A stretch of 64,000 nucleotides of DNA from Escherichia coli (GTDB taxonomy: Bacteria; Pseudomonadota; Gammaproteobacteria; Enterobacterales; Enterobacteriaceae): the NCBI RefSeq assembly GCF_024223415.1, contig NZ_CP100500.1, one strand, 5' to 3'. Both the position numbers and the translations under genes were made by a program. Shown in pieces: positions 17,326 to 53,012 of this stretch (the stretch's first letter is position 1; each line of letters begins with the position of its first letter). The notes under the pieces were generated by a model. The model saw nothing but the letters and a program-made list of their open reading frames with translations. It did no database searches and was not told where the DNA came from.

Positions 17326-17991
17326 TCAGACAAAACCAGCCGCTTTCCGGCGTTCATACTCCTGTTTCAGCAACTCAATTGGCGTTGGTCCCGACGGGCG
17401 TTTGGGGGCCGCCAGTTGTCGCCGGACTGGCGGAACGCTGAGGCCCATACCAACATGCTTTGACCATTTCGTCAGTTGCCGTTCTGCAAACCGTTTTAAC
17501 TCCCCTTCGGTCATCTGGCGTTCAATCCCCTTTGAACGCATCTCGAGGCATATGTGATACAGCACAGGCTGAGACCACGGGTATTTATCGCTTCCGTCGT
17601 ATCGCCAGGACTCATTGCGCCAGCGTCGGTACTCCTCCATCACAGCCCCCACCGTCAGACCGAATGGATTGGCCCCGCTTTCCGGAATCAGTGCCACAAA
17701 CTCAGCCAGGTCAGGAGGCCATGTTTCACCCGCCCGGCAGCGGTCCATGCACTGGCGGCAGACCTGCCGGATTTGCTGCTCAGTCATCGCGCCAATCTGT
17801 GCAATCCAGAGCTTCGAAGGTGCGGCCCCGTTCTTCCGGGTCCAGCGGTCCGAATAAACCTCCCCCATGAGTTCCCACAGCTTCCAGGCTGTTTCCGTCG
17901 CTGATAAATCCGTTTTCACGTTCCCACTGCTCACGTGCTGCCCGAATTTCCTGAACTGCCCGTGATGCGGTGCCACCTGGTGCTGCTGCAT
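17326..17991 (-). CDS. Replication protein P-like (helicase loader); start uncertain (ATG 17991, 17868 or 17787)
   Basis: C-terminal two-thirds resemble lambda P as recalled (YPWSQPVLYHICLEM vs YPWKSNAHYWLVTNL; ELKRFAERQL vs ELRRKAADEL); 17787 start overlaps O-like stop. Confidence 0.6.
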   Translation of the reverse strand: MQQHQVAPHHGQFRKFGQHVSSGNVKTDLSATETAWKLWELMGEVYSDRWTRKNGAAPSKLWIAQIGAMTEQQIRQVCRQCMDRCRAGETWPPDLAEFVALIPESGANPFGLTVGAVMEEYRRWRNESWRYDGSDKYPWSQPVLYHICLEMRSKGIERQMTEGELKRFAERQLTKWSKHVGMGLSVPPVRRQLAAPKRPSGPTPIELLKQEYERRKAAGFV

Positions 17992-18790
17992 GGTTCACCC
18001 CCTTGCTGACTGGTTTAACCTGCGCCCTGACGTGATTTACGTGACGGGCGAATTTCTGCTCCCACTGAACCTGTGTGAACACTTTCCCCTCCGCCATCCA
18101 GTAATCCCGGAAGGCGGCAAGTTCAGCAGGTGTAAATTCCGGTTCCGGCAAAGCCGCTCCCCACAACGCAGCCCGCCGTCGAAAATCCAGCGACGGATGC
18201 CAGCCATCGGCCATCGGAAATTTCCCGATGGGTTCACTCAGGCCATCCGGAAATTCAGGTTCCGCCACCTGCAACGGCGTACCGTTCGGTTCACTGGTCG
18301 GAGCACTCTCGCGCACGCGCGCGTTATGTGTGGGGTTTAATTCTTTATCTGTATCTTTATTAGTTGCCTTTGTGTTTGCGTCATGTTCAAACACCACACC
18401 AACATTTGTTTGAACACCTGTTAAATCTCTCTCTTGTTTTGTTTGAACATCTGCTTCCTTTCTGCTTCTTCTGGCCTGAACAGATGCTTTTCCGGCGGCT
18501 GATTTTTTGGTTAATTTTTCCCTGACTGATGCCAGATCTTCCTCAATCCGAAGATGCACCCATTCATCGCCGTTATCGTGAAAAAACTCCCGCAAGGATG
18601 GCTCCACATCAGCCCATCGCTCATTAGTCAGACGGGCAATTTTTGCCAGCCTGTTTTTAGGTATTGGCTTTCCTGTTTGCCAGTAATTGAACATCAGCAA
18701 CAAATACGCACCGTGCTCCTCTGCTGATAAATGCATGGTGTCAGCCAGGTAATCAGCGATGTACAGTTGCATGTATGGTAATGCGGCCAT
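17780..18790 (-). CDS. Replication initiator, DUF1376/YdaU-like (lambda O analogue) with internal iteron origin
   Basis: 336 aa; LMFNYWQTGKPIP N-terminal domain; iterons and AT-rich tract inside the coding region of a hydrophilic linker. Confidence 0.6.
   Translation of the reverse strand: MAALPYMQLYIADYLADTMHLSAEEHGAYLLLMFNYWQTGKPIPKNRLAKIARLTNERWADVEPSLREFFHDNGDEWVHLRIEEDLASVREKLTKKSAAGKASVQARRSRKEADVQTKQERDLTGVQTNVGVVFEHDANTKATNKDTDKELNPTHNARVRESAPTSEPNGTPLQVAEPEFPDGLSEPIGKFPMADGWHPSLDFRRRAALWGAALPEPEFTPAELAAFRDYWMAEGKVFTQVQWEQKFARHVNHVRAQVKPVSKGVNHAAAPGGTASRAVQEIRAAREQWERENGFISDGNSLEAVGTHGGGLFGPLDPEERGRTFEALDCTDWRDD
18384..18483. repeat. Origin-like iterons TGTTTGAACA (18407-18416, 18440-18449), inverted copy TGTTCAAACA (18384-18393), partial copy (18476-18483); adjacent AT-rich tract ~18335-18365
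   Basis: Exact 10-mer repeats read directly; arrangement mirrors lambda ori inside O. Confidence 0.5.
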
Positions 18791-19551: not shown

Positions 19552-19581
19552 AGCTACTCCTTAGTAAACACAGCAAAAGAA

Positions 19582-19617
19582 TACCCACAGGTAAACAAAA
19601 GTCAATACCCTTGGGTT
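19582..19617. promoter_or_regulatory. Operator pair (OR-like): TACCCACAGGTA (19582-19593) and TACCCTTGGGTT (19606-19617) between divergent cro-like and repressor genes
   Basis: Palindromic TACCC-N2-GGGTA-type 12-mers 24 bp apart; same motif recurs downstream of repressor. Confidence 0.5.
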
Positions 19618-19652
19618 GTTTACCTTGCGGTAATCGCATCTATTATTTACCT

Positions 19653-20072: not shown

Positions 20073-20115
20073 CTCACCAAACAACCAGTCACCAGTTAAG
20101 ATACATCAAAAAAAT

Positions 20116-20152
20116 TACCCATGGGTATTTACTTCTTGGATACCCATGGGTA
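20116..20152. promoter_or_regulatory. Second operator pair: two perfect TACCCATGGGTA palindromes (20116-20127, 20141-20152) just 3-prime of repressor gene
   Basis: Exact 12-bp palindromes 25 bp apart, same consensus as OR-like pair. Confidence 0.45.
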
Positions 20153-20474
20153 TCCTTTCTTTCATACCAACCCACCCCGCCCCACAGAACGCAGGGCAAT
20201 ACTTCGAGTTACCAGGCAGTGGTCAGGGGTTAAGTAGCCAGCCCGAGGCGTATGAACATGACGGCAGGGTTTAACTTTAACTATGCAGCAGGTTTTTGTT
20301 CCGCTACCCCGGCGTTAAGGGGAAACAGAGGATTTCTCAGTGGGCGAAGTCAAACATCAGAATGGAAGGCATCCCGGGATCGGCAAAGAAGCAGCAATGG
20401 CGCTTTATATTGACATCAGCGCCATTGCCGGACAGGTAAGAATTATCAGAGCGGTAACTAAGCGGTATGTGCCT

Positions 20475-25189: not shown

Positions 25190-26297
25190 AACCGATGTTC
25201 CGGGTTTATCTCCGTATTTTGACAAAAGAAATAACAAAGTTTACTGGCGTTACAGGCATCCCATCACAGGTAAAAATCATGGACTCGGCAGTATTGACCA
25301 GAAACTGGCGGAAACCATTGCAGCAGAAGCGAACAGCCGTCTTGCCAGACAACAAATGGAGCAAATTCTCAGTCTGCAGGAGAAAATTATTAGTGATACC
25401 GGCGGCGCATCAACCGTTTCCATTTTTCTGAATAATTACAGAAAAATTCAACAGGAAAGATATGAGAACGGAGAGATCAAACTCAGCACGCTGAAGCAAA
25501 AAGCGGCTCCTCTCAGGGTGTTTGATGAACGTTTTGGAGCCAGGCCGCTAGATGCCATAACCGTAAAAGATGTGGTATCGGTGCTGGAAGAATACAAGGC
25601 AAAGGGACATAACAGAATGGGACAAATTTTCAGGAAGGTATTGATCGATGTTTTCCGGGAGGCTCAACAAACGGGTGATGTTCCGCCAGGCTTTAACCCG
25701 GCTGAATCGGCAAAAAAACCGCAAGTGCGGATATCAAGACAGCGACTGACTTTTGATGAGTGGATGATGATTTATAACGCAGCGGAAAAGGATGGTTACT
25801 TTTTACAGCGCGGCATGCTGCTGGCACTGATGACGGGCCAGCGTCTTTCGGATATTTGCAAAATGCAGTTTTCGGATATCCGGGATGGTTACCTTCATGT
25901 CGAACAGCAAAAAACAGGAGCCCGGATAGCCATTCCTCTGGCTCTGCGTTGCGACAAATTAAATCTTACCCTGGGTGACGTGGTGTCATCCTGTCGTGAT
26001 TACATCCTTAGTCCGTGGTTATTGCACCATCATCACGCTAAGGGGATGGGTAAGCGCGGCGGGATGGTTAAACCAGCAACATTAACAGTCGCATTTAAAA
26101 AAGCCCGGGATTCTGTGGATTACAACTGGCGTGCTAATGGCACGCCACCCTCTTTCCATGAGCAAAGATCTTTATCAGAACGATTGTTCAGAGAACAGGG
26201 AATTGATACCAAAATTTTGCTGGGCCATTCGAATCAAAAAATGACCGATATTTACAACGACGCACGCGGTAAAGAGTGGAAAAAACTGGTTATTTGA
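25167..26297 (+). CDS. int: Tyrosine integrase (lambda Int family)
   Basis: 376 aa; C-terminus LLGHSNQKMTDIYNDARGKEWKKLVI parallels lambda Int LLGHKSDTMASQYRDDRGREWDKIEIK (catalytic Tyr). Confidence 0.9.
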   Translation: MARPRKYKTDVPGLSPYFDKRNNKVYWRYRHPITGKNHGLGSIDQKLAETIAAEANSRLARQQMEQILSLQEKIISDTGGASTVSIFLNNYRKIQQERYENGEIKLSTLKQKAAPLRVFDERFGARPLDAITVKDVVSVLEEYKAKGHNRMGQIFRKVLIDVFREAQQTGDVPPGFNPAESAKKPQVRISRQRLTFDEWMMIYNAAEKDGYFLQRGMLLALMTGQRLSDICKMQFSDIRDGYLHVEQQKTGARIAIPLALRCDKLNLTLGDVVSSCRDYILSPWLLHHHHAKGMGKRGGMVKPATLTVAFKKARDSVDYNWRANGTPPSFHEQRSLSERLFREQGIDTKILLGHSNQKMTDIYNDARGKEWKKLVI

Positions 26298-26302
26298 TAA
26301 CC

Positions 26303-26338
26303 AGTTTTGCAGAAGAGTTTTGCAGAGGTTTTGCAGAG
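26303..26338. repeat. Three direct repeats of GTTTTGCAGA (12-13 bp period) between int stop and ompW stop; candidate Int arm-type sites
   Basis: AGTTTTGCAGAAGAGTTTTGCAGAGGTTTTGCAGAG read directly. Confidence 0.35.
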
Positions 26339-26342
26339 AAAA

Positions 26343-26981
26343 TTAGAAGCGGTATCCGGCAGAGAACATAAACACCCACGGATCCAGTCGTACCGCGTCT
26401 TTCACGGGGGTTCCATTAAATTTATAGCTGGCGGTGGTGTCGATATCCATGTACCACACTGACATATTAACCAACCAGTCACGGTTAATCAGATAATCAA
26501 CCCCCACCTGCCCGGCAGCTCCCCAGGAATCTTTCAGACTGAGATCGGAAAGCCCCGCCTCTTTGCCATGATCGTTAAATCCATTATCAAAGAAGGTGGT
26601 GTAGTTAATACCTGCCCCAACATAAGGACGGAATTTGCTGCTGGCATCACCAAAATACCACTGCGCCATCAGTGTTGGCGGCAGATGATGAACGGTTGCA
26701 ATATCGCCGGTCGCCCGGGTGCCGATTTTATGGCGGAACGGCGTCGCTGCCAGTAATTCCACACCAATGTTGTCGGTCGCCATATAAGTAAACGTCAGGC
26801 CCAGTTGAGTGTTATTGGTCACGCTGAATCCACCCAGACTTCCTAACGTACCACCAGCACCTTCTGTAGGACGTACGGTTGCAGAACCTGCACGCATAAA
26901 AAATTCTCCTGCTTCATGCGCAAAGGCACTGCCAGAGAGAAGTGTTGTTACTGCCAAAGCCGCCACTGTTAACTTTTTCAT
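26343..26981 (-). CDS. ompW: Outer membrane protein W
   Basis: 212 aa with signal peptide MKKLTVAALAVTTLLSGSAFA; matches OmpW. Confidence 0.95.
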   Translation of the reverse strand: MKKLTVAALAVTTLLSGSAFAHEAGEFFMRAGSATVRPTEGAGGTLGSLGGFSVTNNTQLGLTFTYMATDNIGVELLAATPFRHKIGTRATGDIATVHHLPPTLMAQWYFGDASSKFRPYVGAGINYTTFFDNGFNDHGKEAGLSDLSLKDSWGAAGQVGVDYLINRDWLVNMSVWYMDIDTTASYKFNGTPVKDAVRLDPWVFMFSAGYRF

Positions 26982-38187: not shown

Positions 38188-39819
38188 TTAGTGCTTCACA
38201 ATGTACATATTTCGGGTGTAGGTATTATCCAGCGGATCTTTGCCGGTATAACCACCAACCCACGGTTTCACCAGACGCGCATTCACGTAGTAATAAACAG
38301 GAACAATGGCCGAATCCTTATCCAGCTGTTGTTCTGCTTTAGTGTACAGAGCTGTGCGCTGCGCCTCGTCAGTCACTTTCAGCGTTTCCGCCATAATGCT
38401 GTCAAAGGCCGGGCTCTTATAATGCGCGGTATTCATCGAGCTGTTCGAAAGCATGGTGTTGAGGAAGGAAGTTGGTTCGTTGTAGTCAGCACACCAGCCT
38501 GCACGGGCCACATCATAAGTACCCTGGTGACGGGTGTCGAGGAACGTTTTCCACTCCTGGTTAACCAGTTTGACGTTTACACCAATGTTTTTCTTCCACA
38601 ATGAAGAGGCAGCAATCGCCAGCTTTTTATGCAGATCGGAGGTGTTATACAGCAGGTTGATGGTCAACGGTTTGTCTGCGGTATAACCCGCTTCAGCCAG
38701 CAGTTTTTTCGCTTCTTCGTTACGTTTTTCCTGGCTCCAGCCAAACCATTCCGGCTGAGTCAATTTTGCGCCATCAGTATACGGTGGAGTGTAACCATAG
38801 GCGGGCATGTCGCCCTGCGCTTTCACTTTATTAACAATGATATCGCGGTCCATACCTAGTTTCAGTGCGGTACGCACACGCACATCGTTGAATGGCGGTT
38901 TCTGGTTGTTAATTTCGTAATAGTAAGTGCACAGGTATGGATCAACGTGAACTTCGTCCGGGATCTCTTTTTTCAGCTTCTGGAACAATTCGATCGGCAT
39001 GTTGTTATACGTCATGTCGATTTCACCACTACGGTAGCGGTTGACATCGGTAACTTCAGAAGCAATAGGCAAATAGGTTACCTGGTTAATAACGGTTTTC
39101 GCGTTGTTCCAGTAGGTCGGGCTGCGTTCAAGAACGATTCGTTCGTTTACGACCCAATCTTTTAAGGTATAGGCACCGTTGGTGACGATATTACCAGGCT
39201 GGGTCCATTTTTCGCCGAATTTCTCGATAGCGGCTTTTGGCACCGGTGAAGTTGATGGGTGAACAAGTAATTTATAGAAGTACGGAACGGGTTCACTTAA
39301 GGTGACTTCTAATGTGTGATCATCAATAGCTTTCACGCCGAGATCGGTAATCGGTTTTTTCCCTTCAAGAATTTCATCAATACCGGCGATATGCCCATAT
39401 TGCAGATAACTGGCATACGGAGAAGCAGTGTTCGGATCAACAGAACGTTGCCAGCTATACACAAAGTCTTGTGCTGTGACTGGCGTGCCATCAGACCATT
39501 TCGCATCTTTACGCAAATGGAAGGTCCAGACTTTCGCGTCTTTATTATCCCAGGATTCAGCGACGCCAGGTGCTGGATGACCGTCAAGATCGCTGACCAG
39601 TAAGCCTTCAAACAGGTCTCGGCTGATATTAGACTCCGGAACACCTTCAATTTTGTGCGGATCTAATGACTGAACTTCTGAACCATTGTTACGTACCAGC
39701 GTTTGTTTTTCCGCCAGTGTGACGCCTGCGGGTACATCAGCTGCCAGCGCGACATTCCCTGCCATTAGCGCAGCCAGAACGCCAGCTGCTACTAAACTTC
39801 TCTTGGTGATGTTGGTCAT
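38188..39819 (-). CDS. oppA: Periplasmic oligopeptide-binding protein OppA
   Basis: 543 aa from ATG 39819 (MTNITKRSLVAAGVLAALMAGNVALA). Confidence 0.95.
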   Translation of the reverse strand: MTNITKRSLVAAGVLAALMAGNVALAADVPAGVTLAEKQTLVRNNGSEVQSLDPHKIEGVPESNISRDLFEGLLVSDLDGHPAPGVAESWDNKDAKVWTFHLRKDAKWSDGTPVTAQDFVYSWQRSVDPNTASPYASYLQYGHIAGIDEILEGKKPITDLGVKAIDDHTLEVTLSEPVPYFYKLLVHPSTSPVPKAAIEKFGEKWTQPGNIVTNGAYTLKDWVVNERIVLERSPTYWNNAKTVINQVTYLPIASEVTDVNRYRSGEIDMTYNNMPIELFQKLKKEIPDEVHVDPYLCTYYYEINNQKPPFNDVRVRTALKLGMDRDIIVNKVKAQGDMPAYGYTPPYTDGAKLTQPEWFGWSQEKRNEEAKKLLAEAGYTADKPLTINLLYNTSDLHKKLAIAASSLWKKNIGVNVKLVNQEWKTFLDTRHQGTYDVARAGWCADYNEPTSFLNTMLSNSSMNTAHYKSPAFDSIMAETLKVTDEAQRTALYTKAEQQLDKDSAIVPVYYYVNARLVKPWVGGYTGKDPLDNTYTRNMYIVKH

Positions 39820-41680: not shown

Positions 41681-44356
41681 ATGGCTGTTACTAATGTCGC
41701 TGAACTTAACGCACTCGTAGAGCGTGTAAAAAAAGCCCAGCGTGAATATGCCAGTTTCACTCAAGAGCAAGTAGACAAAATCTTCCGCGCCGCCGCTCTG
41801 GCTGCTGCAGATGCTCGAATCCCACTCGCGAAAATGGCCGTTGCCGAATCCGGCATGGGTATCGTCGAAGATAAAGTGATCAAAAACCACTTTGCTTCTG
41901 AATATATCTACAACGCCTATAAAGATGAAAAAACCTGTGGTGTTCTGTCTGAAGACGACACTTTTGGTACCATCACTATCGCTGAACCAATCGGTATTAT
42001 TTGCGGTATCGTTCCGACCACTAACCCGACTTCAACTGCTATCTTCAAATCGCTGATCAGCCTGAAGACCCGTAACGCCATTATCTTCTCCCCGCACCCG
42101 CGTGCAAAAGATGCCACCAACAAAGCGGCTGATATCGTTCTGCAGGCTGCTATCGCTGCCGGTGCTCCGAAAGATCTGATCGGCTGGATCGATCAACCTT
42201 CTGTTGAACTGTCTAACGCACTGATGCACCACCCAGACATCAACCTGATCCTCGCGACTGGTGGTCCGGGCATGGTTAAAGCCGCATACAGCTCCGGTAA
42301 ACCAGCTATCGGTGTAGGCGCGGGTAACACTCCAGTTGTTATTGATGAAACTGCTGATATCAAACGTGCAGTTGCATCTGTACTGATGTCCAAAACCTTC
42401 GACAACGGCGTAATCTGTGCTTCTGAACAGTCTGTTGTTGTTGTTGACTCTGTTTATGACGCAGTACGTGAACGTTTCGCAACCCACGGCGGCTATCTAT
42501 TGCAGGGTAAAGAGCTGAAAGCTGTTCAGGACGTTATCCTGAAAAACGGTGCGCTGAACGCGGCTATCGTAGGTCAGCCAGCCTATAAAATTGCTGAACT
42601 GGCAGGCTTCTCTGTACCAGAAAACACCAAGATTCTGATCGGTGAAGTGACCGTTGTTGATGAAAGCGAACCGTTCGCACATGAAAAACTGTCCCCGACT
42701 CTGGCAATGTACCGCGCTAAAGATTTCGAAGACGCGGTAGAAAAAGCAGAGAAACTGGTTGCTATGGGTGGTATCGGTCATACCTCTTGCCTGTACACTG
42801 ACCAGGATAACCAACCGGCTCGCGTTTCTTACTTCGGTCAGAAAATGAAAACGGCTCGTATCCTGATTAACACCCCGGCTTCTCAGGGTGGTATCGGTGA
42901 CCTGTATAACTTCAAACTCGCACCTTCCCTGACTCTGGGTTGTGGTTCCTGGGGTGGTAACTCCATCTCTGAAAACGTTGGTCCGAAACACCTGATCAAC
43001 AAGAAAACCGTTGCTAAGCGAGCTGAAAACATGTTGTGGCACAAACTTCCGAAATCTATCTACTTCCGCCGTGGCTCCCTGCCAATCGCGCTGGATGAAG
43101 TGATTACTGATGGCCACAAACGTGCGCTCATCGTGACTGACCGCTTCCTGTTCAACAATGGTTATGCTGATCAGATCACTTCCGTACTGAAAGCAGCAGG
43201 CGTTGAAACTGAAGTCTTCTTCGAAGTAGAAGCGGACCCGACCCTGAGCATCGTTCGTAAAGGTGCAGAACTGGCAAACTCCTTCAAACCAGACGTGATT
43301 ATCGCGCTGGGTGGTGGTTCCCCGATGGACGCCGCGAAGATCATGTGGGTTATGTACGAACATCCGGAAACTCACTTCGAAGAGCTGGCGCTGCGCTTTA
43401 TGGATATCCGTAAACGTATCTACAAGTTCCCGAAAATGGGCGTGAAAGCGAAAATGATTGCTGTCACCACTACTTCTGGTACAGGTTCTGAAGTCACTCC
43501 GTTTGCGGTTGTAACTGACGACGCTACTGGTCAGAAATACCCGCTGGCGGACTATGCGCTGACCCCGGATATGGCGATTGTCGACGCCAACCTGGTTATG
43601 GACATGCCGAAGTCCCTGTGTGCTTTCGGTGGTCTGGACGCAGTAACTCACGCCATGGAAGCTTATGTTTCTGTACTGGCATCTGAGTTCTCTGATGGTC
43701 AGGCTCTGCAGGCACTGAAACTGCTGAAAGAATATCTGCCAGCGTCCTACCACGAAGGGTCTAAAAATCCGGTAGCGCGTGAACGTGTTCACAGTGCAGC
43801 GACTATCGCGGGTATCGCGTTTGCGAACGCCTTCCTGGGTGTATGTCACTCAATGGCGCACAAACTGGGTTCCCAGTTCCATATTCCGCACGGTCTGGCA
43901 AACGCCCTGCTGATTTGTAACGTTATTCGCTACAATGCGAACGACAACCCGACCAAGCAGACTGCATTCAGCCAGTATGACCGTCCGCAGGCTCGCCGTC
44001 GTTATGCTGAAATTGCCGACCACCTGGGTCTGAGCGCACCGGGCGACCGTACTGCTGCTAAGATCGAGAAACTGCTGGCATGGCTGGAAACGCTGAAGGC
44101 TGAACTGGGTATTCCGAAATCTATCCGTGAAGCTGGCGTTCAGGAAGCAGACTTCCTGGCGAACGTGGATAAACTGTCTGAAGATGCATTCGATGACCAG
44201 TGCACTGGCGCTAACCCGCGTTACCCGCTGATCTCCGAGCTGAAACAGATTCTGCTGGATACCTACTACGGTCGTGATTATGTAGAAGGTGAAACTGCAG
44301 CGAAAAAAGAAGCCGCTCCGGCTAAAGCTGAGAAAAAAGCGAAAAAATCCGCTTAA
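41681..44356 (+). CDS. adhE: Bifunctional aldehyde/alcohol dehydrogenase AdhE
   Basis: 891 aa; [26 protein letters not shown]. Confidence 0.97.
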
Positions 44357-52302: not shown

Positions 52303-53012
52303 TAGTGCTGTCCTCCGGTGGTGATATTCAGATATTGCGGCGCGACGGCACCGGCAAAGCGACGCTGATGAGCAGTGATTGCTGAATCACCGCAGCCTTT
52401 GTCAGCAAAGAATTTAACCTGCTCTTCTTCCCAGACAGCATCCAGCGCCTGCGGCGTATCGTCGCGCGCTTCGTCGGCAATTTTTTCCGCCACTTTGTCG
52501 CTGTCGATAGCGGTATTCGCCAGTTTCATCAGCAGATCAAACAGCACGGCATAACGGCTTTCACGCTGTTGCAGACGCGCGCTCAGCAATGCCAGAATCG
52601 GCGCGATATCTTTCAAACCTTCCACGGCTTCGCTTTGCGGTAGCTGCGCCAGGTACTCCAGATACAGCGGCAGATGGTCCGGCAATTCGCGGCTGTTTAA
52701 CTGCAAGCCGTGCTGCTCGTACTGCGCCAGCAGGTCCACCATCGCCTGGCCGCGGTCGCGGGATTCGCCGTGCACATGTTCAAACAGCAACAGTGACGTG
52801 GCGCGGCCACGGTCGAACAGTTCGCTGTACTGCGCCTGGGCATCGAGCGGATCCATCGTCGTTAAATCGCGCAGGAAAATGCCCAGCGCATGGGCATCCT
52901 CTTTTGGCAGATTTTTCGACGCGGCAATCGCCTCAAACATCTCTTGTTGATGCTGCCATAAGGCAGCATCCGGATATTCAAGGAGACGCGATACAATCAC
53001 GAGTTCGATCAT
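52302..53012 (-). CDS. narJ: Nitrate reductase chaperone NarJ
   Basis: 236 aa; operon order. Confidence 0.95.

What the first reader, a model, noticed from the sequence alone, without database searches (positions are those of the whole stretch)
18330..18490. Replication origin (iterons plus AT-rich tract) embedded in the DUF1376 initiator gene
Within the coding sequence of the O-like gene the 10-mer TGTTTGAACA occurs twice 33 bp apart, once inverted (TGTTCAAACA) and once as a partial copy, next to an AT-rich tract. The encoded protein segment is a low-complexity hydrophilic linker. This mirrors lambda ori-inside-O and supports the DUF1376 protein as a true initiator paired with the P-like loader.
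Basis: partly seen in the sequence, partly recalled or inferred. Interest (0 to 1): 0.4.

Follow-up and report, generated by a model that had tools for sequence, protein, structure and literature searches.

The report
Phage replication origin inside ydaU gene
A short array of repeated DNA sites followed by an easily melted AT-rich stretch sits inside the replication-initiator gene of a Rac-like E. coli prophage, and comparison with relatives shows the DNA itself is conserved, so it is most likely the phage's replication origin, an expected lambda-like layout in a protein family still labelled "unknown function".

Summary
TGTTTGAACA occurs exactly at 18407 and 18440, inverted at 18384, with a half copy at 18477. 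A 30-40 bp AT-rich tract (18329-18370) is next to it. All lie in the disordered linker of a 336-aa protein (17780-18790, minus strand) made of DUF1376 plus a DnaT-like domain, upstream of a lambda-P-like gene. No shuffle reproduces such a cluster.

The N-terminal half, including the repeats, is 95.6% identical to K-12 Rac ydaU. Rac carries the active origin oriJ, whose fine position I could not find.

Across 22 diverse DUF1376 loci, from Enterobacterales to Pseudomonas, Moraxella and Sinorhizobium phages, the same gene position holds a repeat array plus a low-GC tandem tract. The prevailing core is GTT-N1-2-AAC, 17-fold enriched there. Synonymous sites are conserved. Arrays with an 11-nt period are read in three frames. 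In Moraxella the AT tract is intergenic. Homology between mosaic relatives breaks right after the AT tract, and the C-terminal tail tracks the loader type.

The N-domain models as a winged helix resembling origin-binding domains. I conclude this is a lambda-type origin inside the initiator gene (confidence about 0.75). It is inferred, not demonstrated. It is a new member of a known kind, of moderate interest.

The parts
17780..18790 (-). ydaU-like initiator gene (336 aa): DUF1376 N-domain, disordered linker, DnaT-like domain, acidic tail
   Evidence: ORF. Pfam DUF1376 E 6e-26 and DnaT E 2e-17. PDB DnaT chains E 3e-20. AF2 models.
18458..18790 (-). Coding region of the N-terminal winged-helix domain plus long basic-ended helix (aa 1-111), the proposed origin-binding domain
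18440..18449 (.). Dyad site TGTTTGAACA (gene strand TGTTCAAACA), first full site in the direction of transcription
   Evidence: Exact match. Lies in an E. coli-clade-specific 12-nt insertion.
18407..18416 (.). Dyad site TGTTTGAACA, second full site
   Evidence: Exact match. A 12-nt unit insertion relative to other clades.
18384..18393 (.). Dyad site TGTTCAAACA, with the central dinucleotide in the opposite orientation; the site conserved in all enterobacterial clades as YGTT-nn-AACR
18401..18422 (.). Interleaved opposite-phase dyads AACAtttGTT and AACAcctGTT, which complete the alternating half-site array
   Evidence: Read from the sequence. The homologous array is AACG-nn-CGTT-c-AACG-nn-CGTT in other genera.
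18477..18482 (.).
   Evidence: Present in the E. coli and Salmonella clades only.
18329..18370 (.). AT-rich, A-rich-on-coding-strand tract ACTAATAAAGATACAGATAAAGAATTAAAC, the candidate DNA-unwinding element
   Evidence: GC 0.37. Least stable 0.07% of 30-bp windows. ACTAATAAAGAT is invariant at DNA level in all 55 aligned genes, including synonymous sites. The (GATACA)n copy number varies.
18315..18324 (.). GC-rich palindrome ACGCGCGCGT, part of a (CG)n-like tract of variable length, directly after the AT tract
   Evidence: A similar TAACGCGCGCGAGC follows the AT tract in Moraxella phage Mcat25.
18328..18342 (.). Mosaic (module) junction, where homology to K-12 Rac ydaU and to other C-terminal types ends
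   Evidence: Variability jumps from 9/42 to 115/138 sites after gene nt 462.
18020..18232 (-). DnaT-like C-terminal-type ssDNA-binding domain (aa 187-257)
   Evidence: pLDDT about 90.
17326..17991 (-). Lambda-P-family helicase-loader gene, overlapping the last ~70 codons of the initiator gene
   Evidence: Pfam Phage_lambda_P E 2e-14. Overlap seen. Raised third-position conservation in the overlap.
19578..19605 (-). pR-like promoter whose transcript would read through ydaS-like, ydaT-like, the initiator gene and the proposed origin
   Evidence: Consensus scan only: TTGACT-16-TATTCT. Gene order.

Best explanation
The element at 18315-18482 is the replication origin of a Rac-like lambdoid prophage. 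It is embedded in the gene for its own initiator and is the counterpart of the K-12 Rac ydaU segment that most plausibly holds oriJ.

**Proposed mechanism** (every step is inferred unless marked as shown):
1. Transcription from the pR-like promoter expresses the ydaS-like, ydaT-like, initiator and P-like genes and passes through the origin.
2. The initiator's N-terminal winged-helix domain binds as dimers to the alternating YGTT/AACR half-site array. The long helix (aa 80-111), which ends in the basic segment KKSAAGKASVQARRSRK, may assist. The dyads are GTT-N1-2-AAC, phased at about 11, 23 and 33 bp.
3. The nucleoprotein complex destabilises the adjacent 30-40 bp AT-rich tract.
4. The DnaT-like domain holds the exposed single strand.
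5. The acidic C-terminal tail recruits the lambda-P-like loader with host DnaB.

**Shown here:** the anatomy, the DNA-level constraint, the family-wide conservation of the layout, the domain folds, and the co-variation of tail type with loader type.

**Not shown here:** binding, unwinding and replication.
For: 1. **The cluster is non-random.** None of 100 shuffles holds such a cluster, and half-site density is the window maximum. The AT tract is in the least stable 0.07% of 30-bp windows.
2. **The layout mirrors lambda.** Sites lie at gene nt 342-407 and the AT tract at nt 421-462. In lambda O the iterons lie at nt 349-433 and the AT tract at nt 434-473.
3. **The constraint is at DNA level.** Third-position identity is 0.67-0.89 in codons 126-153 against 0.2-0.55 elsewhere. 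The known overlap with the P gene gives the same signature and serves as a positive control. Fourfold-degenerate sites inside half-sites (CGT TCA ACG .. GTT) are invariant while the spacers vary.
4. **The repeats are DNA repeats, not peptide repeats.** Arrays with an 11-nt period are translated in different frames in Sinorhizobium phiLM21 (STDVQRTFNGRST) and in Rahnella. In the window the inverted copy encodes VFEH and the direct copies encode VQT. In Moraxella Mcat25 the AT tract is intergenic.
5. **The element is family-wide.**
   - In 13 of 22 loci the linker is the most repeat-rich window of the whole 3-7 kb locus.
   - GTT-N1-2-AAC is 17-fold enriched in the linkers. This includes loci examined after the motif had been defined.
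   - Other clades carry other motifs at the same place: TGCAAATGCA, ATGCGAACGCAT and AAAACCCAAGTGGTT.
6. **The gene is modular.** Homology breaks right after the AT tract. The acidic tail goes with a P-like gene and the IPPGFRG tail with a DnaC-like gene in 9 of the 10 loci compared. In C. braakii L092 the downstream ORF picked by the script was spurious.
7. **The folds fit.** The N-domain is a winged helix similar to origin-binding WH domains. The C-domain is DnaT-like.
8. **A close relative is a working replicon.** The segment is 95.6% identical to K-12 Rac ydaU. Rac has an active origin, oriJ (PMC3945230). In the 8-kb Rac replication region the ydaU linker ranks first for half-site density.
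Against: - No experiment or dataset examined here shows replication starting at this site or the protein binding it.
- I could not find the published fine map of oriJ. The only primers described as 'framing oriJ' amplify 155 bp inside K-12 ydaV, about 0.7-0.8 kb downstream of the repeats.
- Within the E. coli clade the 10-mers are not clearly less polymorphic than their surroundings: 6/30 against 20/60 variable sites.
- Some relatives have lost an exact copy.
- Four of 22 loci have no exact 9-mer repeat in the linker.
- Spacing between half-sites varies (1 or 2 bp), which is unusual for a rigid dimer.
Confidence: 0.75

Rival explanations
1. The conserved sites are a regulatory operator or roadblock array rather than an origin. 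The initiator, or another phage regulator, would bind inside the gene to autoregulate transcription of the initiator and loader genes or to time their expression.
For: Dyad-symmetric sites are typical of operators. The array lies within the operon transcribed from the pR-like promoter. DNA-level constraint alone does not separate an operator from an origin.
Against: - This does not explain the adjoining, DNA-level-invariant, minimally stable AT tract.
- It does not explain the tandem low-complexity tracts that follow the array in every clade.
- It does not explain the module junction at that point.
- The immunity operators of this prophage are a different motif, TACCCAnnGGGTA.
- The only gene common to all 22 loci is the DUF1376 gene itself.
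Confidence: 0.1
2. The conserved AT tract and its flanks are a module-boundary or recombination 'linker' sequence. It would be kept because it mediates exchange of N-terminal and C-terminal gene modules among mosaic phages, and the repeats would be incidental.
For: Homology between relatives breaks exactly after the AT tract. ACTAATAAAGAT..CTAAAAGAA is shared by genes with at least three different C-terminal halves.
Against: - It does not explain phased dyad arrays, whose motif changes between clades while position and architecture stay the same.
- It does not explain the gain of extra site units by 12-nt insertions.
- In lambda the same junction behaviour is a consequence of ori lying between the two O domains; recombination marks are annotated at 39157-39166, just after the AT tract.
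- The two ideas are therefore not exclusive.
Confidence: 0.07
3. The repeats reflect a peptide repeat or low-complexity composition of a hydrophilic linker (for example xxVQxxxxxxx with an 11-aa period) and have no function as DNA.
For: The 33-nt spacing equals 11 codons, and the direct copies both encode VQT. The linker is predicted disordered. TNKD.D.DLKE is conserved as peptide.
Against: - The inverted copy encodes a different peptide (VFEH).
- Arrays with an 11-nt period are read in three frames in phiLM21 and two in Rahnella.
- Synonymous positions are conserved while amino acids vary.
- In Moraxella the AT tract is outside any ORF.
Confidence: 0.04
4. The region encodes a structured RNA or an mRNA element, such as a hairpin that controls translation or decay.
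For: An 11-16 nt inverted repeat links 18383-18398 and 18435-18450. One predicted pair shows G-C to A-U covariation across clades.
Against: The fold is no better than shuffles (z = -1.04). The consensus structure energy is -2.46 kcal/mol with only 9 pairs. The long inverted repeat is specific to the E. coli clade.
Confidence: 0.02

Closest known systems
Bacteriophage lambda ori-lambda inside gene O, with the O initiator and P loader
   Same: - The origin lies inside the initiator gene at the boundary between an N-terminal DNA-binding domain and a C-terminal loader-interacting part.
- Repeated dyad-symmetric sites are followed, in the direction of transcription, by a ~40-bp A-rich AT tract.
- The element sits at nearly the same codon positions in both genes.
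- It encodes a flexible linker.
- A module junction lies just after the AT tract.
- A P-family loader gene lies downstream, and the origin is about 1.2 kb from a pR-like promoter.
   Different: - The initiator shows no sequence similarity to lambda O and belongs to Pfam DUF1376, not the O family.
- The sites are 8-10 bp dyads in an interleaved half-site array, not four 18-19 bp iterons.
- The C-terminal part contains a DnaT-like domain.
- Similarity between the two AT tracts is only compositional (p = 0.25).
Rac prophage of E. coli K-12: ydaU-ydaV and the origin oriJ
   Same: The N-terminal half of the gene, with all three 10-mers and the AT tract, is 95.6% identical. The gene order racR / ydaS-ydaT-ydaU is the same. 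Rac is reported to have an active origin (PMC3945230; Potrykus et al. 2000, cited in PMC11014345).
   Different: - After the AT tract the K-12 gene continues into a different C-terminal half ending in IPPGFRG. It is followed by the DnaC-like YdaV, not by a DnaT-like domain plus a lambda-P-like gene.
- The position of oriJ within Rac is not annotated in NC_000913.3, and I could not retrieve it.
DopC/DopE (Brezellec et al. 2017, PMC5509034)
   Same: An O-like protein carrying a DnaT C-terminal motif is encoded immediately upstream of a lambda-P-family gene. This is the same C-terminal module and loader pairing as here.
   Different: The DopC N-terminus is an HTH_36 (lambda-O-like) domain, not DUF1376. 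The authors found no iterons in dopC and concluded it is no longer an origin. Here the array and the AT tract are present.
Iteron-type plasmid origins with winged-helix Rep initiators (e.g. the pSK41-type RepA, PDB 4pta)
   Different: The match is fold-level only (16% identity). Plasmid iterons are usually 17-22 bp direct repeats outside the rep gene.

Membership tests
Lambda-type phage origin (origin embedded in the initiator gene) | Lies within the initiator's coding sequence, between the DNA-binding domain and the loader-interacting domain | tested here: met
   Sites lie at codons 114-136 and the AT tract at codons 141-154. They sit between the winged-helix domain (aa 1-111) and the DnaT-like domain (aa 187-257).
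Lambda-type phage origin (origin embedded in the initiator gene) | Three or more repeated, dyad-symmetric initiator-binding sites | tested here: inconclusive
   Three exact 10-mer dyads plus extra half-sites are present, non-random and conserved. Binding by the initiator was not testable.
Lambda-type phage origin (origin embedded in the initiator gene) | AT-rich unwinding region immediately downstream of the sites in the direction of transcription | tested here: met
   The tract at 18329-18370 has GC about 0.37 and is in the least stable 0.07% of 30-bp windows. Its order relative to the sites is the same as in lambda.
Lambda-type phage origin (origin embedded in the initiator gene) | Supports initiator- and loader-dependent replication | not testable with these tools
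   Needs cloning or marker-frequency experiments.
Lambda O protein family (Pfam Phage_rep_O / HTH_36 N-domain) | Sequence membership of the initiator | tested here: not met
   Pfam gives only DUF1376 and DnaT. BLASTP against lambda O finds nothing (best E 0.25 over 6 residues).
DUF1376 / YdaU family | Match to PF07120 above the curated cut-off | tested here: met
   91 bits against a cut-off of 30.1, covering aa 5-87 and the full profile. 14,438 representative clusters match at E <= 1e-3.
DnaT C-terminal domain | Match to PF17948 and to solved DnaT chains | tested here: met
   62.9 bits against a cut-off of 25. PDB 6aep, 4ou6 and 2ru8 match at E 3e-20 to 8e-17. ssDNA binding was not tested.
Rac oriJ | Sequence identity to the K-12 Rac replication region | tested here: met
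   95.6% identity over window 18336-18790, including the repeats and the AT tract.
Rac oriJ | Coincidence with the experimentally mapped oriJ | tested here: inconclusive
   No map was retrievable and NC_000913.3 has no such feature. The qPCR primers described as 'framing oriJ' lie in ydaV, about 0.7-0.8 kb away.

The most novel reading that the evidence does not exclude
DUF1376 is a widespread origin-binding module of phage initiators; more than 14,000 representative clusters match it. Its cognate origin is always written into its own gene, directly after the domain.

The commonest recognition code is an array of GTT-S-AAC / GTT-NN-AAC dyads phased at 11 bp, conserved from alpha- to gamma-proteobacterial phages and translated in whatever frame it happens to fall. 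Specificity may reside in the basic end of the long helix (AG-K-A/K-S-A..R+), which would grip 7- or 8-bp dyads much as bZIP proteins accept AP-1 and CRE spacings. That segment co-occurs with the GTTSAAC motif in all loci with such arrays and in none of the five loci with other motifs. Moraxella versus Vibrio phages form a natural swap.

Fusing this module to a DnaT-like ssDNA-binding domain would give an initiator that itself holds the melted strand for P-DnaB or DnaC-DnaB delivery.
Probability: 0.4. Interest if true: 0.6.

Novelty: new member of a known kind. Interest (0 to 1): 0.4.

Why it matters
- It gives DUF1376/YdaU a concrete, testable function. This large family is still annotated as 'unknown function', 'toxin neighbour' or 'primosomal protein'. 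The proposal is that it is the origin-binding initiator of a lambda-like replication module.
- It pinpoints to about 170 bp the likely position and anatomy of the long-known but poorly described Rac origin oriJ and of its many relatives in E. coli. 1,905 of 5,426 complete E. coli genomes carry a match to this gene.
- It gives a simple rule for finding origins in thousands of prophages: look just after the DUF1376 domain for phased dyads plus a low-GC tandem tract.
- It offers a natural system for studying how short dyad arrays and a DnaT-like domain replace lambda's iterons and the O C-domain.
- It is not a new principle. Origin-inside-initiator is textbook for lambdoid phages.

Tried and rejected
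1. **Frame-shift idea.** I first thought the E. coli and Salmonella arrays were homologous DNA read in different frames. The DNA alignment shows instead two in-frame 12-nt insertions in the E. coli clade. The frame-independence argument holds only for arrays with an 11-nt period (phiLM21, Rahnella).
2. **Sequence similarity of the AT tract to lambda's AT tract.** 15 of the first 20 bases match by eye, but the local alignment score is ordinary for this composition (p = 0.25).
3. **RNA structure.** Not supported.
4. **Internal promoter.** No sigma-70-like site lies in the linker.
5. **Within-clade polymorphism as a test of constraint.** It was not discriminating: 6/30 against 20/60 variable sites.
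6. **Literature on oriJ fine mapping and on YdaU/DUF1376 function.** Nothing usable is in the held library. Potrykus et al. 2000 is not held. The Stx 'Eru' replication-region paper does not cover this module.
7. **De Paepe 2014 'oriJ' primers.** They map inside ydaV, in a stretch with no repeats or AT dip. I treat them as a nearby copy-number probe, not a map.
8. **A184/T-type N-domain substitutions as a specificity switch for TGTT versus CGTT half-sites.** C. braakii breaks the pattern, so I dropped the idea.
9. **The immunity repressor as the binder.** Its operators are a different motif.
Full report
**1. What is there**

The finding lies in a minus-strand ORF, 17780-18790, of 336 aa. Pfam finds DUF1376 at aa 5-87 (E 6e-26) and a DnaT DNA-binding domain at aa 191-257 (E 2e-17). 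Solved DnaT chains match at E about 1e-20.

The next gene downstream, 17326-17991 (-), belongs to the lambda P family and overlaps the last ~70 codons. Upstream lie a YdaT-like and a YdaS/Cro-like gene, then a divergent repressor gene. Divergent promoter-like sites sit at 19578-19646.

This is the early-right operon of a Rac-like lambdoid prophage of E. coli. The best genome match is 99.8% identical.

**2.

- TGTTTGAACA is exact at 18407 and 18440, and reversed at 18384. A half copy, TGAACA, lies at 18477, keeping the 33-bp step.
- The 10-mer is itself a dyad (TGTT-nn-AACA). Opposite-phase dyads lie between the copies, giving 10 YGTT/AACR half-sites in 91 nt. That is the maximum of the 64-kb window, whose mean is 1.74.
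- Only three loci in the window hold any 10-mer three times within 100 bp. None of 100 dinucleotide shuffles does.
- GC drops to 0.37 against about 0.6 in the flanks. The 30 bp starting at 18335 are among the least stable 0.07% of the window.
- A full-length AlphaFold model gives pLDDT below 50 for aa 119-175, so the element does encode a disordered linker.

**3. Relation to Rac**

Window 18336-18790 covers the N-domain, all repeats and the AT tract. It is 95.6% identical to ydaU of the K-12 Rac prophage. The alignment ends abruptly right after the AT tract.

The K-12 gene then continues into a different C-terminal half and is followed by the DnaC-like YdaV. Phage-database hits break at the same point.

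Rac is reported to have an active origin, oriJ (PMC3945230; Potrykus et al. 2000, cited). I could not retrieve any fine map. NC_000913.3 annotates none. The only 'oriJ' primers I found amplify a featureless 155 bp inside ydaV, about 0.7-0.8 kb away. Within the 8-kb Rac replication region, the ydaU linker ranks first for half-site density and contains one of the least stable 30-bp windows.

**4. Comparative evidence for a DNA-level element**

I collected 80 IMG/VR loci, 17 loci from species-representative genomes and 11 loci from deposited phages.

*Clades.* Relatives fall into an E. coli clade, a Salmonella clade (about 70% aa identity) and a Klebsiella/Enterobacter/Citrobacter clade (about 55%). 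More distant members follow. The N-domain is nearly invariant among Enterobacterales.

*Synonymous sites.* Third-codon-position identity between clade representatives is 0.2-0.55 in the domains but 0.67-0.89 in codons 126-153. Amino-acid identity there is only about 0.5. The same signature appears in codons 281-336, where the P gene overlaps, which serves as a built-in positive control. ACTAATAAAGAT is invariant in all 55 aligned genes, synonymous positions included.

*Conserved array.* The exact 10-mers are specific to the E. coli clade. The other clades keep an array at the same place:
- Salmonella: AACAcaTGTTcAACAggTGTT...TGTTtaAACA.
- Klebsiella, Enterobacter, Pantoea and Dryocola: AACGacCGTTcAACGggCGTT...CGTTtgAACA.
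- Rahnella: three copies of CGACCGTTCAACG.
- Azotobacter: four copies of ACGTTGAAC/ACGTTGAGC.

In every case a (GATACA)n-type tract follows. Fourfold-degenerate positions inside the half-sites are fixed, while the two spacer bases vary. Two of the three E. coli copies arose as in-frame 12-nt insertions of a TGTTCAAACAAA unit.

*Distant phages, examined after the motif was defined:*
- Pseudomonas PfDIW6 has AACGACCGTT twice plus CGTTGAACG, then (GAAGA)n at GC 0.33.
- Pseudomonas AH02 has AACGAACGTTGAACGG, then (ACAGAT)5.
- Sinorhizobium phiLM21, with only 28% N-domain identity, has 3.5 tandem copies of TTCAACGGACG with an 11-nt period. They are therefore translated in three frames as STDVQRTFNGRST. 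(AGCCAGA)4 follows.
- Moraxella Mcat25 has three copies of CCGTTCAAC. Its ORF stops there, and the AT tract plus TAACGCGCGCGAGC are intergenic.
- Other clades carry other motifs at the same position. Rhizobium and Acetobacter phages have TGCAAATGCA. A Vibrio phage has ATGCGAACGCAT three times, then (TACCCAA)4. An Acinetobacter phage has AAAACCCAAGTGGTT twice.

*Quantification.* The linker is the most repeat-rich 160-nt window of the whole locus in 13 of 22 loci, and lies in the top 6% in 16 of 22. GTT-N1-2-AAC occurs 33 times in 3,740 nt of linkers against 53 times in 101,336 nt elsewhere, a 17-fold enrichment.

**5. Modularity**

- The homology break lies just after the AT tract. Variable sites jump from 9/42 to 115/138 there.
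- I compared ten loci. In six (the window, Salmonella, Klebsiella, Citrobacter L065, Dryocola, Rahnella) genes ending in an acidic ...EE[RW]..D..DD tail are followed by an overlapping lambda-P-like gene.
- In three (Citrobacter MGH106, Enterobacteriaceae L087, Pantoea) and in K-12 Rac, genes ending in IPPGFRG are followed by a DnaC-like ATPase.
- In C. braakii L092 the downstream ORF the script picked was a spurious overlapping frame. The Azotobacter loader type was not resolved.
- Many database proteins share the DnaT-like C-half but carry other N-domains.
- This is the pattern known for lambda O. The RefSeq lambda record shows iterons at O nt 349-433, an AT tract (GC 0.225) at nt 434-473, and recombination marks just beyond. 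These gene positions nearly coincide with those found here.

**6. The protein**

- With a 74-sequence alignment, aa 1-112 fold with pLDDT 90.9 as a winged helix (H23-39, H45-51, H56-69, wing 71-78) followed by a long helix, aa 80-111.
- Foldseek finds MarR- and Rio2-type wHTH domains weakly. These are fold-level similarities only.
- There is no sequence similarity to lambda O.
- The basic end of the long helix, AG-K-A/K-S-A..R+, is conserved as protein, since its synonymous sites vary. It co-occurs with GTTSAAC arrays and is absent from the five loci with other motifs. The otherwise similar Moraxella and Vibrio N-domains form a natural swap. The sample is small and confounded by phylogeny.

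**7. Rivals**

- An operator or roadblock function would explain the dyads. It would not explain the invariant, minimally stable AT tract, the tandem tracts or the junction. The prophage's own operators are a different motif.
- A pure module-boundary sequence would explain the junction but not the phased arrays whose motif changes between clades.
- A peptide repeat is excluded by frame-independence, by synonymous conservation and by the intergenic Moraxella case.
- RNA structure is not supported: z = -1.04, and the consensus energy is -2.46 kcal/mol.

**8. Known relatives and novelty**

The layout is that of ori-lambda. The sequence is a variant of the K-12 Rac ydaU region and hence probably of oriJ. 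The pairing of a DnaT_C domain with a P-like gene has been described for DopC/DopE, where no iterons were found (PMC5509034).

The held literature contains nothing on YdaU/DUF1376 function. I therefore file this as a new member of a known kind. It is a lambda-type, gene-embedded origin served by a different initiator family.

The family-wide rule is the more interesting by-product, but it remains a prediction. The rule is a phased dyad array plus a low-GC tandem tract immediately after the DUF1376 domain.

**9. Verdict**

- Confidence that this is the origin is about 0.75.
- Interest is 0.4.

Noticed in passing
window 17780-17991: The last ~70 codons of the initiator gene overlap the start of the lambda-P-like ORF in another frame. 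Third-codon positions of the initiator are unusually conserved there (0.77-0.89) while its amino acids are not. The overlap occurs in all relatives with a P-like gene.
   Followed up: partly
window 18308-18325: A (CG)n-like alternating tract, ACGCGCGCGTGCGCGAG, lies directly after the AT tract. Its length varies between relatives, up to (CG)8 in Salmonella prophages. A similar TAACGCGCGCGAGC follows the AT tract in Moraxella phage Mcat25. It could be a Z-DNA-prone or slippage-prone element, or part of the origin, like lambda's palindrome.
   Followed up: partly
window 19579-19635 and 20113-20155: Operator-like palindromes of the form TACCCAnnGGGTA occur in two places. Two lie between the divergent repressor and cro-like genes. 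Two perfect copies of TACCCATGGGTAT, 25 bp apart, lie just downstream of the repressor gene. They are presumably the immunity operators.
   Followed up: no
window 6577-6678: GCA(T/C)ATGTCCGGTT occurs twice, 30 bp apart, with an inverted copy AACCGGACATG 47 bp further on. This is one of only three places in the window with a 10-mer present three times within 100 bp.
   Followed up: no
window 26282-26351: There are three to four tandem copies of GTTTTGCAGAG with an 11-13 bp period, next to a 12-nt perfect hairpin (AAAACTGGTTAT / ATAACCAGTTTT). This looks like another protein-binding array.
   Followed up: no
window 42391-42510: This patch has the second-highest density of YGTT/AACR half-sites in the window, at 9 per 91 nt. 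I did not examine it.
   Followed up: no
window 920-929 and 52777-52786: Two further exact copies of TGTTTGAACA (minus strand) lie far from the initiator gene. They could be chance, or secondary binding sites for the initiator.
   Followed up: no
loci L063/L064 and L097 (Kosakonia); proteins P0011-P0016: Some relatives carry a T5orf172/MUG113 (GIY-YIG-like) domain inserted between the DUF1376 domain and the AT tract. It replaces the usual dyad array while keeping ...TNTDPDKDTDLKE.
   Followed up: no
L100 (Pseudomonas phage PfDIW6), gene nt 181-202: Two extra copies of ACGTTGAACG lie 11 nt apart inside the N-domain coding region, in addition to the linker array.
   Followed up: no
L001 2231-2385 (K-12 ydaV): The published semi-qPCR primers described as 'framing oriJ' (De Paepe et al. 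2014, supplement) amplify a segment inside ydaV around its Walker A motif. That segment shows no origin-like features.
   Followed up: yes
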